A stretch of DNA of 64,000 nucleotides from the NCBI GenBank assembly GCA_000002445.1, contig CP000068.1, forward strand, positions 1,152,001 through 1,216,000, given 5' to 3'. Shown piece by piece: positions 16,254 to 22,440 of this stretch (the first letter of the stretch is position 1; every line of letters starts with the position of its first letter). A program made the position numbers and the translations under genes. The DNA is from Trypanosoma brucei (taxonomy: Eukaryota). A model generated the notes under the pieces. That model searched no databases, was not told the origin of the DNA, and worked only from the letters and a program-made list of their open reading frames with translations.

Positions 16254-17816
16254 ATGCCAAGTTCGTCGTTGTCGAGTCCCCATCCTCTCGTTACTGCAGC
16301 AATTCTTCTTGAAACGTCTCTGGGAGAACTTGTAGTTGATTTGTATGGCGCAGATTGTCCCGTAGCCACGGCGGAGCTCGTGAACTTGTGCCGCTGCAAG
16401 TACTTCAACGGCTGCATAGCTACCGAAGTAGTACCAGATAATGTCATGATATTGGCCCACCCAGTTGAGGAATTACGGCGGCAGACATTTGCTTCGCTTC
16501 TTGAAGCGAGTGGTCAATGTCATCAACTAGGGGGCGATACGGCATCAGATGGGCGTGCGGTGAAACAATTAATATATAATGAATGGAAACGGATGCGAAG
16601 GCACACCGCACAGTTAAGGCGCAACAGTGGTGCTAGCGGAAAAGCTGAAGCGGGCCGTTTGGAGTTTGTCCCCCAGTCAGCCTCGAATGCCGTTGGGGCG
16701 ATACGCCGTAGTGGACTTTTATTACTGGAGGTTCCAAAAGTGGACGGTGGAGGCAGTAATGATGAAGTTTCTCCAAAGATGCAACTACTTATTACCCTCA
16801 GCAACCGTCACCAAGACTATTTCGAAGATAACTTTATGGTGTTAGGTGAAGTGCGTGAAGGAAATAATGTCGTGGAGAAGATGCGTGTAGCACCACACAG
16901 ACGGTTGACATCTGTGTCCGGAATCACGACCCGGCCGTCTCGACTTATACGAATTAGGCACATGACCGTCTTGCCCACGGCTGGGACTGATGCTTTTGCT
17001 GATATCTCGCACCGGGACAGGAGGAAGACAATGGAAGAAAATAATCTCTCTTCCCGTCTGGCACAGGTTGGTTGCTTTCGTCATTGGGCAACGCTGGGGG
17101 CAGTGCAGGCAGCAAACAAAGGCCTCGTTTCGTTACTTAAAAGAGAAGCTTCCAAAAGCACTGCCCGTAAAGGTAGGAAGGGTTCCAGCGATGAAACGGA
17201 GTCATTCAGTGGGTGTGAGTTTCTTGTTATTCCCGAAGACTCTGCACAAGGGGGCGCCCGCAATTTTCCCAACCATGATACGAACAATGGGGATGATTAC
17301 GACATTTTGTCGGTGAAGTATAATTCACATTTTCATGGCGACTATCTTAGTTCTGACGATGATACTGACGGGGATGGCAATTTTGGGTCCCGTAAGGAGC
17401 GTGAGAAACGACAGCAGGAAAAAATGCGCCTCCATCAGGACAAGCTTAACGAAACTCGTGCACTCACGCTGAACCTACTTGATGGTATTGGGGATGCATC
17501 CGGTGAGCTGAAGCCGGAGGGAAACGTACTGTTTGTGTGCAGACTAAATCCACTAACAACGAGTGAAGGTTTGGAAATGTGTTTTTCTCAGTTTGGTAAG
17601 GTTAAGTCGGTGCAGGTGATACGGGACTCCAAGACGGGGGATTCATTATGCTATGGGTTCGTTGAATTTGCTGATGAAGAGACATGCTATAGAGCACATC
17701 AGAAGATGGACAACGCACTCATTGACGATCGGCGCATTCATGTGGATTTCTCTCAATCCGTTTCAAAACTATGGATGGAGAAGCAACGTGAATTGCGCAA
17801 GAGGGTGCGCCAATAA
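16254..17816 (+). CDS. PPIL4: PPIL4-like protein: a degenerate, split cyclophilin-type domain followed by a C-terminal RRM.
   Basis: The N-terminus '[40 protein letters not shown]' matches PPIL4 as I recall it ('[39 protein letters not shown]'). The C-terminus '[80 protein letters not shown]' is near-identical to the PPIL4 RRM ('[80 protein letters not shown]'). Confidence 0.8.
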   Translation: [520 protein letters not shown]

Positions 17817-18070
17817 AGTTAAAATGATTCTCTTCCGTTAACTCATACCTTTGCAGCTGAATGAAAATGACCAGTGAGAGAAGAGTAGCTTTGTTGCACT
17901 CGTTGCATATCCCATTCCCTTCATCGCGGTATTGTGATCATGATCGTTGTCCACGCTGGCATTTTCAAGGATGTGACTTCATTCAGTCAATTTATTTCGT
18001 GCTCTCTCTTTCCTCCTCATTATGGTTGTAGTAGGGCACGTTTTCTCCCCTTCCCCTTCACGAATAAAAC

Positions 18071-19555
18071 ATGCACAGAGCCGCGTATGCACTGGGGGAC
18101 TCATGTGCCAAAGAAACGGCTGCGGGTGCGGCAGGTGGTACCACCGCATTCAGCCGCAAGTCCCAGCGACGCCAAGTTTTAAAGGCACCTGCATTCGTAA
18201 GCAGCGATAACATCAGAACTAGCACATCAATCAGCCTTAGAGACGAAGCAGTGCGTCGCATGGAATCGTTTGTGTTGAACGTTATTTATGAAATTGTGAC
18301 TTATCAAGGGATGAAATATGAGAGACAGCGAAAGGGAGATGCGCAACATCCAGCTGATGCCGCACTCCGATCCGAAGATGGGGACGATGCATGCGAGTTG
18401 AGATCCCCGGAGCGACAACCATCCGGTCCCAACCTCCTGACGGTATCGTCACAGCAACAACAATTGCCCCGACTGCGGCTATTACGTCAACAGCTATTGG
18501 TTCTTCGTCACCTCTATGCTAATGTTCAACTTGGTGTTATATGCACGCAGCGGGACGTTTATTACCGGCTGGTTCGGTTTTTTCCGGATCAGGGCTGTGT
18601 CAACCGTGTCATTCAACAACTAGTCCAACAACTCGGTTTGCCTCGACAGCTGTTGGGTGTTGTTCCGGGAACACGCGGTTGTGTAGGCGGTTCATTAAGC
18701 TTCCACGGAATTGATTTACGGCGGTACTCGTCTGAGGGTCTTCCATTACCTGTTCTACGGGAGGAACTAAGTGTTGTGTGGCGCCCGAAACATGAATGTG
18801 AGTCAATACCCGTCCATTCCCCTGATGATATTGAAGGATTTGAACTTCACAACGACATACGCTACATTATTGTTGTGGAAAAGCATGCAGTGTTTTTTCG
18901 GCTGATGGAAGAAAAAATATTTGATCGGGTTTCGTGCGTTTTATTAACCTCCCATGGGTTTCCCACCGCTGCAGCTTTGACGCTGCTTTCAAATTTGCAT
19001 CGGACGGCAACAGATGTTGGTGTACCTGTCGTCGCACTGGTTGACTATAACCCCAGTGGGCTTTCAATTCTCCAACAGTACAAACATGACACGGGACGGA
19101 TTCAAGAAAACCGTTATGCTTCCGTTCACTCACTACGATGGTTAGGTTTGCGTGGATGCCACGTTTTGCATGATGGGAGTACTGAAGTAGCGGATTCTCA
19201 ATGTTTGTCATCAGGAATTCATGCGGGTGATGCGGTGGGTCATATACCGCGTGTTGCTCGCCTACCATTCCAGCCGTTTACTCAACGCGATGATGTTATG
19301 ATTTCAAACATTATTGCAAGATGGGCCGCTATTTGGAAGGGATGTGACGATGGCGAAGATGCGCAGCGTGTGTGGTTTAGAGAAGCCCAAATAATGCAGA
19401 CGTCACGTGTTAAGGTGGAGTTGGAGGCGATCTATGAGTGTAGTGCAAGTGGCCCATACGAACCTACGCAAAAAGGATTTTCCTCACAATCTTTACATAA
19501 AGGCAGCTTCTCTACGTGGGTGTGTAGGGGATTATTTAGGCGGGACTACATTTAG
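18071..19555 (+). CDS. SPO11: SPO11 / topoisomerase VI subunit A homologue (meiotic DSB transesterase). The alternative start at 18260 (MESFVLN...) gives ~431 aa.
   Basis: Catalytic-Tyr region 'GVICTQRDVYYRLVRFF', 'IIVVEKHAVFFRLMEE' (conserved Glu) and Toprim 'VPVVALVDYNPSGLSILQQY'. The N-terminal ~60 codons are Ala/Ser-rich and may be 5' UTR. Only 255 bp separate this ORF from the upstream gene if the 18071 start is used. Confidence 0.75.
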   Translation: MHRAAYALGDSCAKETAAGAAGGTTAFSRKSQRRQVLKAPAFVSSDNIRTSTSISLRDEAVRRMESFVLNVIYEIVTYQGMKYERQRKGDAQHPADAALRSEDGDDACELRSPERQPSGPNLLTVSSQQQQLPRLRLLRQQLLVLRHLYANVQLGVICTQRDVYYRLVRFFPDQGCVNRVIQQLVQQLGLPRQLLGVVPGTRGCVGGSLSFHGIDLRRYSSEGLPLPVLREELSVVWRPKHECESIPVHSPDDIEGFELHNDIRYIIVVEKHAVFFRLMEEKIFDRVSCVLLTSHGFPTAAALTLLSNLHRTATDVGVPVVALVDYNPSGLSILQQYKHDTGRIQENRYASVHSLRWLGLRGCHVLHDGSTEVADSQCLSSGIHAGDAVGHIPRVARLPFQPFTQRDDVMISNIIARWAAIWKGCDDGEDAQRVWFREAQIMQTSRVKVELEAIYECSASGPYEPTQKGFSSQSLHKGSFSTWVCRGLFRRDYI

Positions 19556-21270: not shown

Positions 21271-22440
21271 TTGAAACAAACATCCGTTGGTACAATGAGA
21301 CGGTTTGCACCACACCACATGCTGGTTACACGGAGTTTATGGCACTCTGCTGTCTTTTTTCGAGGACGGAGAGAAATGTTAAAACCCCTGGCGATGTCAT
21401 CAGAAACTCCCGCATGTGCTGTTGAGGAAGTTGCAACACATCCTCAAGTTTCAATTAATGAAAGTATTTGCAACTCACTTGACAACCTGCTCGGTGAAAC
21501 CGCTTCCCAGCGTGCTGCGGTTACGAGGGTCGGATCTCTACCATCATACTACAAACCGATGAACCTTCGTGGTGTATTGTATGAAGGCGATGTGGCACAA
21601 CAACTTGCGAATGCAGCGGAGTTACGAGGTTTCCGATCGCCTGTTTGGGCTACAAATGCATCATATATACGAGGGGGTTACACGGTGCTGGAATGTGAGG
21701 TTGGGGTTGAAGTGAGCACCTCGATGTTTAACGTGGTTCTTTACAACCTGCAGCAAACGAACTCTCCGGAGGCTGATTCATGCGTTGCGCTTGCGTCGGT
21801 GAAGGCCATGCCACTCTGCGCAACGGGGCGACCCTTCTCTCGAAGACTGCGGCTGGTGCTTATGAGTCACCCCTTCTATACACGATTCAAGTCACAATAT
21901 TGGGTAACTGAAGAGGAAGCTGCAGCACTTGGAACAATGGTGATGACAAGTGAGCGGGGGCGTTGTGTTCCCGTGCCCTGTCCTCCTACAGTGACTGAAA
22001 TGTCTTCCTCCACAAGCCGTGATCCTCGTGTTGAGGACAGCGATACTCCTCCAGGGGAATCTGCTGTTCCTTTGATGTTGTATAATGCGGAGCAATTGGA
22101 GAACCCCAATGCAGCAAGCAGTGAGACTTGTCCTCGAGTTGAATGCGTAAATGCCAATGGGAGGCGTTATAGCACTCTCTTGACTATTCACATGCGGCGG
22201 TATTGCCAACTGCACCAGTTGTGCACAGATCCCTTTGCAACATTTGTCACATGTGCCCGTCTCCGCTCTCTTGGAGGTGATATTGTACCTGGTGCCAGTG
22301 TTCCTCTTACTTTGGTTGTGAGAGATGAATTATTGACACTTTATCATGTGGATCAAACAACGATATCTAACACGTTATTTCAGCATGCCTTGTCTGGCCA
22401 GCGGAAGTGTATGGACCGGGTTTCTGTGATTCAAGTTTAG
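21271..22440 (+). CDS. Hypothetical protein with a probable mitochondrial presequence.
   Basis: The N-terminus 'MRRFAPHHMLVTRSLWHSAVFFRGRR' (from the second Met at 21295) is an Arg-rich, hydroxylated presequence with no acidic residues. A 389-codon ORF in polycistron orientation. No domain recognised. Confidence 0.5.
   Translation: MKQTSVGTMRRFAPHHMLVTRSLWHSAVFFRGRREMLKPLAMSSETPACAVEEVATHPQVSINESICNSLDNLLGETASQRAAVTRVGSLPSYYKPMNLRGVLYEGDVAQQLANAAELRGFRSPVWATNASYIRGGYTVLECEVGVEVSTSMFNVVLYNLQQTNSPEADSCVALASVKAMPLCATGRPFSRRLRLVLMSHPFYTRFKSQYWVTEEEAAALGTMVMTSERGRCVPVPCPPTVTEMSSSTSRDPRVEDSDTPPGESAVPLMLYNAEQLENPNAASSETCPRVECVNANGRRYSTLLTIHMRRYCQLHQLCTDPFATFVTCARLRSLGGDIVPGASVPLTLVVRDELLTLYHVDQTTISNTLFQHALSGQRKCMDRVSVIQV

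What the first reader, a model, noticed from the sequence alone, without database searches (positions are those of the whole stretch)
18071..19555. SPO11 homologue with an apparent DxN in place of the Toprim DxD metal-binding motif
A meiosis-specific DSB enzyme encoded in a housekeeping polycistron. The Toprim segment reads 'VVALVDYNPSGLSI', whereas most Spo11/Top6A proteins as I recall them have D-x-D-P-x-G (e.g. LVDADPYG). The second acidic residue, a Mg2+ ligand, appears as Asn. If the alignment is right, this protein may have altered metal coordination or activity. The ORF also has a 63-codon Ala/Ser-rich N-terminal extension before Met-64 (MESFVLN), so the real start may be 18260.
Basis: partly seen in the sequence, partly recalled or inferred. 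Interest (0 to 1): 0.5.

Follow-up and report, generated by a model that had tools for sequence, protein, structure and literature searches.

The report
Trypanosome SPO11 with conserved DxN motif
This is the known Trypanosoma brucei meiotic DNA-breaking enzyme SPO11, and its Asp-to-Asn change in the metal-binding motif is real but is the already published, conserved hallmark of the SPO11-2 branch of the family, not a defect of this gene.

Summary
ORF 18071..19555 (+) encodes a 494-aa Spo11/Top6A protein. Four alignments to solved Top6A/Spo11 chains place D325-Y-N327 exactly on the D-x-D of the Toprim domain. The catalytic Tyr165, Toprim Glu270 and first Asp325 are intact.

The Asn is not peculiar to this protein. 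It is invariant in all 35 euglenozoan-like relatives and present in about 124 of the 150 best representatives worldwide. It also occurs in 118 of 119 plant SPO11-2 hits (DWNP).

A distance tree separates D-x-D proteins (animals, fungi) from D-x-N proteins. The window protein groups with plant SPO11-2.

Allen & Maxwell 2024 (PMC11302465) already describe DxN as the signature of SPO11-2 in plants and some protists. The probable Leishmania orthologue needs its catalytic tyrosine for hybrid formation (PMC13143177).

The gene is T. b. brucei TREU927 SPO11 (Tb927.5.3760). Comparative evidence favours ATG 18071 instead. Residues 42-63 are conserved, the Met64 position is V/I/A/L in other species, and a predicted helix runs across it.

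Verdict: real, ordinary, already known.

The parts
18071..19555 (+). SPO11 coding sequence (494 aa plus stop); T. b. brucei TREU927 SPO11, Tb927.5.3760
   Evidence: Residues 64-494 are 100% identical to XP_845046.1. The gene ID comes from PMC5601477 and PMC5015846.
18065..18067 (+). In-frame TAA two codons upstream of ATG 18071; the ORF cannot extend further 5'
   Evidence: sequence read directly
18003..18060 (+). Two polypyrimidine tracts (18003-18019 and 18042-18060) with AG dinucleotides at 18031 and 18034. These are candidate trans-splice acceptors upstream of ATG 18071. The first AG after the second tract is at 18077, downstream of that ATG.
   Evidence: Inference only; no spliced-leader mapping data were available.
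18071..18184 (+). N-terminal residues 1-38: Ala/Ser/Gly-rich, poorly conserved, predicted disordered
   Evidence: pLDDT below 50 for residues 1-38; low conservation in alignment A1
18194..18343 (+). Conserved N-terminal block (from F42) and long helix 53-91, which spans Met64. Probably the N-terminal helix that Top6A/SPO11 proteins use to bind the B or B-like subunit.
   Evidence: R63 invariant, E65 and L69 nearly invariant. Helix 53-91 has pLDDT 77-92 over residues 51-80. The role of the helix is taken from Brinkmeier et al..
18260..18262 (+). Probably an internal residue.
   Evidence: The aligned residue is V in T. grayi, I in Angomonas, P0010 and P0014, A in P0015 and L in P0016.
18488..18661 (+). 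TP6A_N / 5Y-CAP (winged-helix) DNA-binding domain
   Evidence: Pfam PF04406, aa 140-197
18548..18550 (+). Gln160 in T-Q-R-D-V-Y-Y. It is a second lineage signature: Lys in 93% of D-x-D proteins and never Lys in D-x-N proteins.
18563..18565 (+). Catalytic Tyr165 (second Y of RDVYY), aligned with yeast Spo11 Tyr135
18863..19153 (+). Toprim domain (N-terminal part of the Pfam model)
   Evidence: Pfam PF21180, aa 265-361; fold search hits
18878..18880 (+). Toprim Glu270 (VVEKHAVF), a metal ligand
19043..19051 (+). [quoted passage not shown]

Best explanation
The ORF is the T. brucei SPO11 gene, and it belongs to the SPO11-2 (DxN) lineage of the Top6A/Spo11 family.

By homology, it acts as the DNA-cleaving subunit of a meiotic topoisomerase-VI-like complex. 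Two SPO11 protomers form a dimer, either two copies of this protein or this protein with the second kinetoplastid paralogue. The dimer is held by a TopoVIB-like partner through the N-terminal helix.

Each Tyr165 attacks one DNA strand, next to a Mg2+ site built by the Toprim residues Glu270, Asp325 and Asn327 of the partner protomer. The result is a double-strand break with 5'-phosphotyrosyl-linked protein.

The Asn at the second position of the DxD motif is an ancient, selectively maintained feature of this lineage. It is compatible with cleavage, and probably only weakens or re-tunes binding of the auxiliary metal.

Shown here: domain architecture, the aligned catalytic residues, conservation of DxN, and grouping with plant SPO11-2. 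Inferred: dimer composition, the trans active site, metal chemistry, and the meiotic role in T. brucei.

Translation most likely starts at ATG 18071, not at Met64.
For: Domains and fold:
- Pfam finds TP6A_N plus the Spo11 Toprim domain.
- The ten best PDB fold matches are all Top6A or Spo11 chains.
- Catalytic residues align residue by residue with solved structures.

Conservation:
- D325 and N327 are invariant in 19/19 relatives and in 35/35 euglenozoan-like sequences.
- About 124 of the 150 best worldwide representatives carry D-x-N-P-x-G, against 30 with D-x-D.

Lineage:
- Representative P0041 is 88% identical to proteins named SPO11-2.
- 118 of 119 plant SPO11-2 hits carry DWNP.
- The NJ tree separates D-x-D proteins (a sea slug and fungi) from D-x-N proteins.
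- Bootstrap support for that split is 75% exact and 97.5% within two taxa.
- Trypanosomatids group with plant SPO11-2, free of any D-x-D protein, in 92.5% of replicates, and in 87% with both motifs masked.
- A second shared signature is Gln160.

Literature:
- DxN is always present in plant SPO11-2 and sometimes in protist SPO11-2. Mamiellales have only a DxN SPO11-2, so DxN complexes can make breaks (PMC11302465).
- Both Arabidopsis catalytic tyrosines are required (Hartung 2007, reference list seen).
- In L. tropica, deletion of either paralogue in both parents abolishes hybrids, and Y160F and Y100F fail to rescue (PMC13143177). A Leishmania-like orthologue of the window protein has its catalytic Tyr at 160.
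- Yeast spo11-D290A, which changes the same position to Ala, is only a weak hypomorph with near wild-type spore viability (PMC3728922).

Start codon.
Against: - No biochemical or genetic data exist for the T. brucei protein itself.
- A YFP fusion was reported as undetectable in all tsetse stages (cited in PMC13143177).
- The effect of Asn on metal binding is unknown.
- The tree is a distance tree without a Top6A outgroup, and exact-split support falls to 48.5% when the motifs are masked.
- I could not retrieve the second kinetoplastid paralogue, so dimer composition is open.
- The Leishmania authors call the probable orthologue 'SPO11-1', which conflicts with my clade assignment.
- The GenBank TREU927 model starts at Met64, and one candidate splice acceptor (AG 18077) would remove ATG 18071.
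Confidence: 0.85

Rival explanations
1. The DxN Toprim site is catalytically dead. The protein would be a non-cleaving, structural or regulatory partner of the second paralogue, so the complex nicks DNA or needs the other subunit for all chemistry.
For: The second Asp is otherwise near-universal in Toprim enzymes, and mutating it in E. coli topo I strongly reduces DNA binding (PMC11302465). Kinetoplastids have two paralogues.
Against: Tyr165, Glu270 and Asp325 are invariant. In the trans active site of type II enzymes (established knowledge), the DxN Toprim pairs with the partner's tyrosine. In Arabidopsis and Leishmania both tyrosines are required, so both composite sites are needed. Mamiellales have only a DxN SPO11-2. 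Yeast D290A keeps most activity.
Confidence: 0.07
2. The protein has a mainly non-meiotic role, for example DNA metabolism in proliferating or stressed cells, as proposed for Plasmodium SPO11-2.
For: The mRNA is present in cultured procyclic forms and rises 2-3-fold after heat shock (PMC5015846). No tagged protein was seen in the tsetse meiotic stage. Plasmodium SPO11-2 is essential in asexual stages.
Against: The probable Leishmania orthologue is dispensable for growth and fly colonisation but needed for hybrid formation. The heat-shock set overlaps genes induced in epimastigote or salivary-gland stages, where meiosis occurs.
Confidence: 0.06
3. The Asn is a sequencing error or a strain-specific mutation in this assembly.
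For: AAC differs from GAC by a single base.
Against: The same codon is present in T. b. gambiense DAL972. None of the 13 differences between the two genes lies there. The residue is invariant across genera.
Confidence: 0.01

Closest known systems
Plant SPO11-2 (e.g. Arabidopsis thaliana SPO11-2; here Ipomoea, Cuscuta and Vitis SPO11-2)
   Same: Same two-domain architecture, catalytic Tyr and Toprim Glu. Same D-(aromatic)-N-P-x-G-L-x-I-L motif (DWNPAGLAIL against DYNPSGLSIL). Same Gln before R-D/E-x-Y-Y and the same C-terminal ...DYI ending. They sit on the same side of the DxD|DxN split.
   Different: Only about 30-40% identity over the core. The trypanosome protein has a longer N-terminus and disordered inserts (aa 92-130, 241-252, 368-395). 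Plant SPO11-2 works with a D-x-D SPO11-1; the kinetoplastid partner was not identified here.
Leishmania tropica 'SPO11-1' of Catta-Preta et al. 2026 (PMC13143177)
   Same: Probable orthologue. Leishmania-group homologues are the nearest non-Trypanosoma relatives, and one (P0026) has the catalytic Tyr at position 160, the residue mutated in that study. It is required, with its tyrosine, for hybrid formation.
   Different: It is named SPO11-1 there, whereas motif and tree place it with plant SPO11-2. Leishmania proteins are longer (about 650 aa) with large inserts. I had no L. tropica sequence, so the orthology is inferred.
Canonical SPO11 / SPO11-1 of animals and fungi (yeast Spo11, PDB 8urq; mouse SPO11)
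   Same: Same fold and catalytic Tyr/Glu/first Asp, and the same presumed chemistry.
   Different: These carry D-x-D and mostly Lys where this protein has Gln160. They fall on the other side of the tree.
Archaeal topoisomerase VI A subunit (1d3y, 2zbk, 2q2e, 9o0g)
   Same: Best structural matches, with homologous 5Y-CAP and Toprim domains.
   Different: These are true ATP-dependent strand-passage enzymes with a GHKL B subunit and religation, and they carry D-x-D. No evidence here for such activity.

Membership tests
Top6A/Spo11 superfamily | 5Y-CAP (TP6A_N) domain with the catalytic tyrosine in an R-D/E-x-Y/F-Y context | tested here: met
   Pfam PF04406 at 46.5 bits against a cut-off of 26. 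RDVYY with Tyr165 aligns to yeast RDIFY Tyr135. Invariant in relatives.
Top6A/Spo11 superfamily | Toprim domain with the acidic Glu and the D-x-D-x-x-G metal motif | tested here: inconclusive
   PF21180 at 75 bits against 24.1, with Glu270, Asp325, Pro328 and Gly330 present. The second Asp is Asn327, so the motif is met only in its published DxN variant.
Top6A/Spo11 superfamily | Overall fold | tested here: met
   AlphaFold2 model (mean pLDDT 69; core blocks mostly 77-94). Its ten best PDB matches are Top6A/Spo11 chains, E 7e-14 to 2e-8.
SPO11-2 lineage (Malik 2007; Allen & Maxwell 2024) | Asn replacing the second Asp of DxD | tested here: met
   N327. Plant SPO11-2 carries DWNP in 118 of 119 hits. 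Literature.
SPO11-2 lineage (Malik 2007; Allen & Maxwell 2024) | Phylogenetic grouping with plant SPO11-2 rather than SPO11-1 or SPO11-3/Top6A | tested here: met
   NJ tree of 126 sequences and 289 columns. Trypanosomatids plus plant SPO11-2 are separated from all D-x-D proteins in 92.5% of bootstraps, 87% with motifs masked. Caveats: distance method, no Top6A/SPO11-3 and no named plant SPO11-1 in the set.
SPO11-2 lineage (Malik 2007; Allen & Maxwell 2024) | Works with a SPO11-1 partner and a TopoVIB-like subunit in meiotic break formation | not testable with these tools
   Only literature on Arabidopsis and Leishmania.
Meiosis-specific DSB enzyme in T. brucei | Expression in, and requirement for, the meiotic stage in tsetse | not testable with these tools
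   The literature is mixed. The mRNA is induced with other meiotic genes, but the tagged protein was not detected.

The most novel reading that the evidence does not exclude
The D-to-N change in the Toprim site and the K-to-Q change two residues before the catalytic R-D-x-Y-Y (Gln160 here) are coupled. Together they would remove one negative and one positive charge from the composite (trans) active site of all SPO11-2-type enzymes. That would give them a different metal stoichiometry or affinity from SPO11-1/Top6A, for example loss of the auxiliary metal B. The change might bias the enzyme toward irreversible, partner-dependent cleavage. In kinetoplastids the meiotic break complex might then be built entirely from DxN-type protomers.
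Probability: 0.2. Interest if true: 0.5.

Novelty: already known. Interest (0 to 1): 0.15.

Why it matters
It matters little as a discovery. The gene is the annotated T. brucei SPO11, and the DxN variant is a documented lineage signature.

Three modest points follow:
- Kinetoplastid SPO11 (Tb927.5.3760 and its Leishmania counterpart) can be placed explicitly in the DxN/SPO11-2 class. That conflicts with the 'SPO11-1' label used for Leishmania, and it matters when extrapolating the plant heterodimer model.
- The GenBank TREU927 gene model probably lacks 63 N-terminal residues, including part of the helix expected to bind the B-like subunit. This is relevant to tagging and expression constructs, and the earlier N- or C-terminal fusion gave no signal.
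- What Asn does to metal binding remains an open biochemical question for the whole lineage. Trypanosomatids are a tractable system in which to test it.

Tried and rejected
- **Register error.** I checked whether the by-eye register was off by a residue. It is not; four independent alignments to solved chains agree.
- **Strain mutation or sequencing error.** Rejected by conservation across genera and by the DAL972 DNA.
- **Second kinetoplastid paralogue.** A group of short DxN proteins (P0015, P0028, P0029, P0033, P0040, P0043, P0038; catalytic Tyr near 95-101) looked like candidates. A profile search returned no named trypanosomatid, only environmental and green-algal relatives. They are more likely SPO11-2 orthologues of other protists. 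With all three large protein searches and the one representative search used, the paralogue stayed unidentified.
- **Second SPO11 in the window.** An HMM search over the six-frame translation found only the known ORF.
- **Leishmania gene IDs and primers.** The oligonucleotide table of PMC13143177 is not held, and PMC10630298 gives an ID only for HOP1.
- **Papers not held.** Malik 2007, Hartung & Puchta 2000 and Peacock 2011 could not be read. Their content is cited second-hand.
- **DAL972 frameshift in independent assemblies.** An exact look-up of the truncated products found nothing in the collection, so this is uninformative.
- **Met64 start.** Considered because it matches the reference annotation, then judged less likely.

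Full report
**What is there**

The window carries an ATG-to-TAA ORF at 18071..19555 on the + strand, 494 codons. Pfam finds the two domains that define the Top6A/Spo11 family. TP6A_N covers aa 140-197, and the Spo11/Top6A Toprim domain covers aa 265-361. Both score well above the curated cut-offs.

An AlphaFold2 model has mean pLDDT 69, with core blocks mostly at 77-94. Its ten best matches in the PDB are archaeal Top6A and yeast Spo11 chains only.

Residues 64-494 are 100% identical to XP_845046.1, 'meiotic recombination protein SPO11, putative [Trypanosoma brucei brucei TREU927]'. The window is therefore T. b. brucei chromosome 5, and the gene is the one the literature calls Tb927.5.3760. 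No second SPO11 homologue lies in the window. All 21 ORFs of at least 250 aa are on the + strand, which is the usual trypanosomatid directional gene cluster.

**The motif**

Asp325 is therefore the first Asp and Asn327 replaces the second. The codons are GAC TAT AAC at 19043-19051. The other catalytic residues are in place: Tyr165 in RDVYY and Glu270 in VVEKHAVF.

**Is it peculiar to this protein? No**

- In an alignment of 18 relatives, D325 and N327 are both invariant. The set covers eight Trypanosoma species, Angomonas, Leishmania and unnamed environmental sequences.
- An exhaustive HMMER scan of 1.84 billion representatives gave 1475 hits.
- Among the best 150, about 124 read D-x-N-P-x-G and 30 read D-x-D-P-x-G.
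- Representative P0041 (Cuscuta, GLVDWNPAGLAIL) is 88% identical to proteins named 'meiotic recombination protein SPO11-2'. Of 119 plant hits, 118 carry DWNP.
- The D-x-D representatives that have names are animal and fungal SPO11.

**Tree**

A neighbour-joining tree of 126 sequences over 289 conserved columns recovers a clean split between D-x-D and D-x-N proteins. The window protein lies on the D-x-N side.

| Bootstrap measure (200 replicates) | All columns | Both motifs masked |
|---|---|---|
| Exact D-x-D / D-x-N split | 75% | 48.5% |
| Split recovered within two taxa | 97.5% | 91.5% |
| Named trypanosomatids with plant SPO11-2, no D-x-D protein on their side | 92.5% | 87% |

One further column discriminates the two sides. 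The residue two before the R of R-D-x-Y-Y is Lys in 93% of D-x-D proteins and never Lys in D-x-N proteins. There it is mostly Gln, and the window protein has Gln160.

**What is already published**

[quoted passage not shown] They add that this was first seen in Arabidopsis SPO11-2 (Hartung & Puchta 2000). They note that Mamiellales have only a DxN SPO11-2, so DxN complexes must be able to make breaks. They also state that the effect on metal binding is unknown.

Kinetoplastids are not named in the main text of that paper, and its held supplement mentions Trypanosoma only for the B-like subunit. The explicit placement of kinetoplastid SPO11 in the DxN class is therefore my result. It falls within what the paper describes.

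**Function**

No experiment on the T. brucei protein exists in what I could read. A tagged version was reported undetectable in tsetse (cited in PMC13143177). The mRNA rises with other meiotic transcripts after heat shock.

In Leishmania tropica two SPO11 paralogues exist. Deleting either one in both parents abolishes hybrids, and Y160F ('SPO11-1') and Y100F ('SPO11-2') alleles do not rescue.

The Leishmania-group orthologues of the window protein have the catalytic Tyr at 159 (P0012) and 160 (P0026). The window gene therefore most likely corresponds to their 'SPO11-1'. That creates a naming clash with the plant-based clade names, because motif and tree put it with plant SPO11-2.

In type II enzymes the tyrosine of one protomer works with the Toprim site of the other (established knowledge). 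Both tyrosines are required in Arabidopsis (Hartung 2007, listed) and in Leishmania. This implies that the DxN Toprim site is a working site.

Yeast spo11-D290A replaces the same position with Ala. It is only a weak hypomorph with near wild-type spore viability (PMC3728922).

From memory of type IIA topoisomerase structures, the second Asp mainly holds the auxiliary metal B. The likely effect of Asn is therefore weaker or altered binding of that metal, not loss of catalysis. This last step is inference.

**Start codon**

The T. equiperdum, T. b. equiperdum and T. b. gambiense models use ATG 18071.

Evidence for 18071:
- An in-frame TAA lies at 18065-18067, and there is no other in-frame ATG before Met64.
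- Residues from about F42 to R63 are conserved across trypanosomatids, and R63 is invariant in 19/19 sequences.
- The position aligned with Met64 is Val in T. grayi and Ile in Angomonas, P0010 and P0014. It is Ala in P0015 and Leu in P0016. It is therefore not a conserved initiator.
- Leishmaniinae proteins start 26-29 residues upstream of that position, with a conserved block.
- The model predicts one continuous helix, residues 53-91, at pLDDT 77-92. This probably corresponds to the N-terminal helix that Top6A/SPO11 proteins use to bind the B or B-like subunit.

Residues 1-38 are poorly conserved and predicted disordered.

Evidence against 18071: of the candidate splice acceptors, AG 18031 and 18034 precede the ATG, but AG 18077, which follows the second polypyrimidine tract, would remove it. 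Only spliced-leader mapping can settle this.

**Side observation**

The orthologous gene in T. b. gambiense DAL972 (FN554968.1) differs from the window gene by 12 substitutions and one deleted T, TTT to TT at window 18715, codon 215. This shifts the frame ahead of the Toprim domain. The deposited 448-aa product skips frame and lacks the Toprim Glu. I could not tell whether this is a real lesion in this asexual lineage or an assembly error.

**Verdict**

The interpretation as a possible defect or oddity is not supported. This is a known gene carrying the known signature of its paralogue lineage.

Noticed in passing
window 18715 (codon 215); L001 3644-3645 (T. b. gambiense DAL972, FN554968.1): The DAL972 SPO11 orthologue has a 1-bp deletion (TTT to TT) that shifts the frame before the Toprim domain. 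The deposited 448-aa protein (P0002) jumps frame and lacks the Toprim Glu. It could be a real pseudogenisation in the asexual gambiense lineage or an assembly error. The truncated products were not found in independent assemblies.
   Followed up: partly
window 18071-18262: The GenBank TREU927 SPO11 model (XP_845046.1, 431 aa) starts at Met64, while sister-taxon models (T. equiperdum, T. b. equiperdum, DAL972) start at the upstream ATG (494 aa). Comparative evidence favours the long form, so the reference model is probably 63 residues short.
   Followed up: yes
window 18548-18550 (Gln160): The residue two before R-D-x-Y-Y is Lys in 93% of D-x-D SPO11 proteins and never Lys in D-x-N proteins (mostly Gln). 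This second lineage signature covaries with the D-to-N change and sits next to the catalytic tyrosine.
   Followed up: partly
related proteins P0012, P0026 (Leishmania group): The Leishmania orthologue of this gene appears to be the one named 'SPO11-1' (Y160F) by Catta-Preta et al. 2026, yet motif and tree place it with plant SPO11-2. The paralogue names in kinetoplastids may not match the plant-based clades.
   Followed up: partly
proteins P0015, P0028, P0029, P0033, P0038, P0040, P0043 (alignment A2): A group of short (343-438 aa) DxN SPO11 proteins, known only from environmental or run-level assemblies, is sister to the trypanosomatid clade in the NJ tree. The organisms are unknown, and a profile search found no named trypanosomatid among their relatives.
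   Followed up: partly
window 16254-17816 and 21271-22440; L001: The neighbours are a cyclophilin-type isomerase fused to an RRM domain (upstream) and a Tc-38-family protein (downstream), with an APC11-like RING protein further upstream. All are on the + strand, and the order is the same in DAL972.
   Followed up: no
window 18087-18182 (+, frame 2): An out-of-frame ATG at 18087 opens a 31-codon reading frame ending at TAA 18180-18182, inside the 5' end of the SPO11 ORF. It would act as an upstream ORF only if the mRNA started downstream of 18071 and Met64 were used.
   Followed up: no
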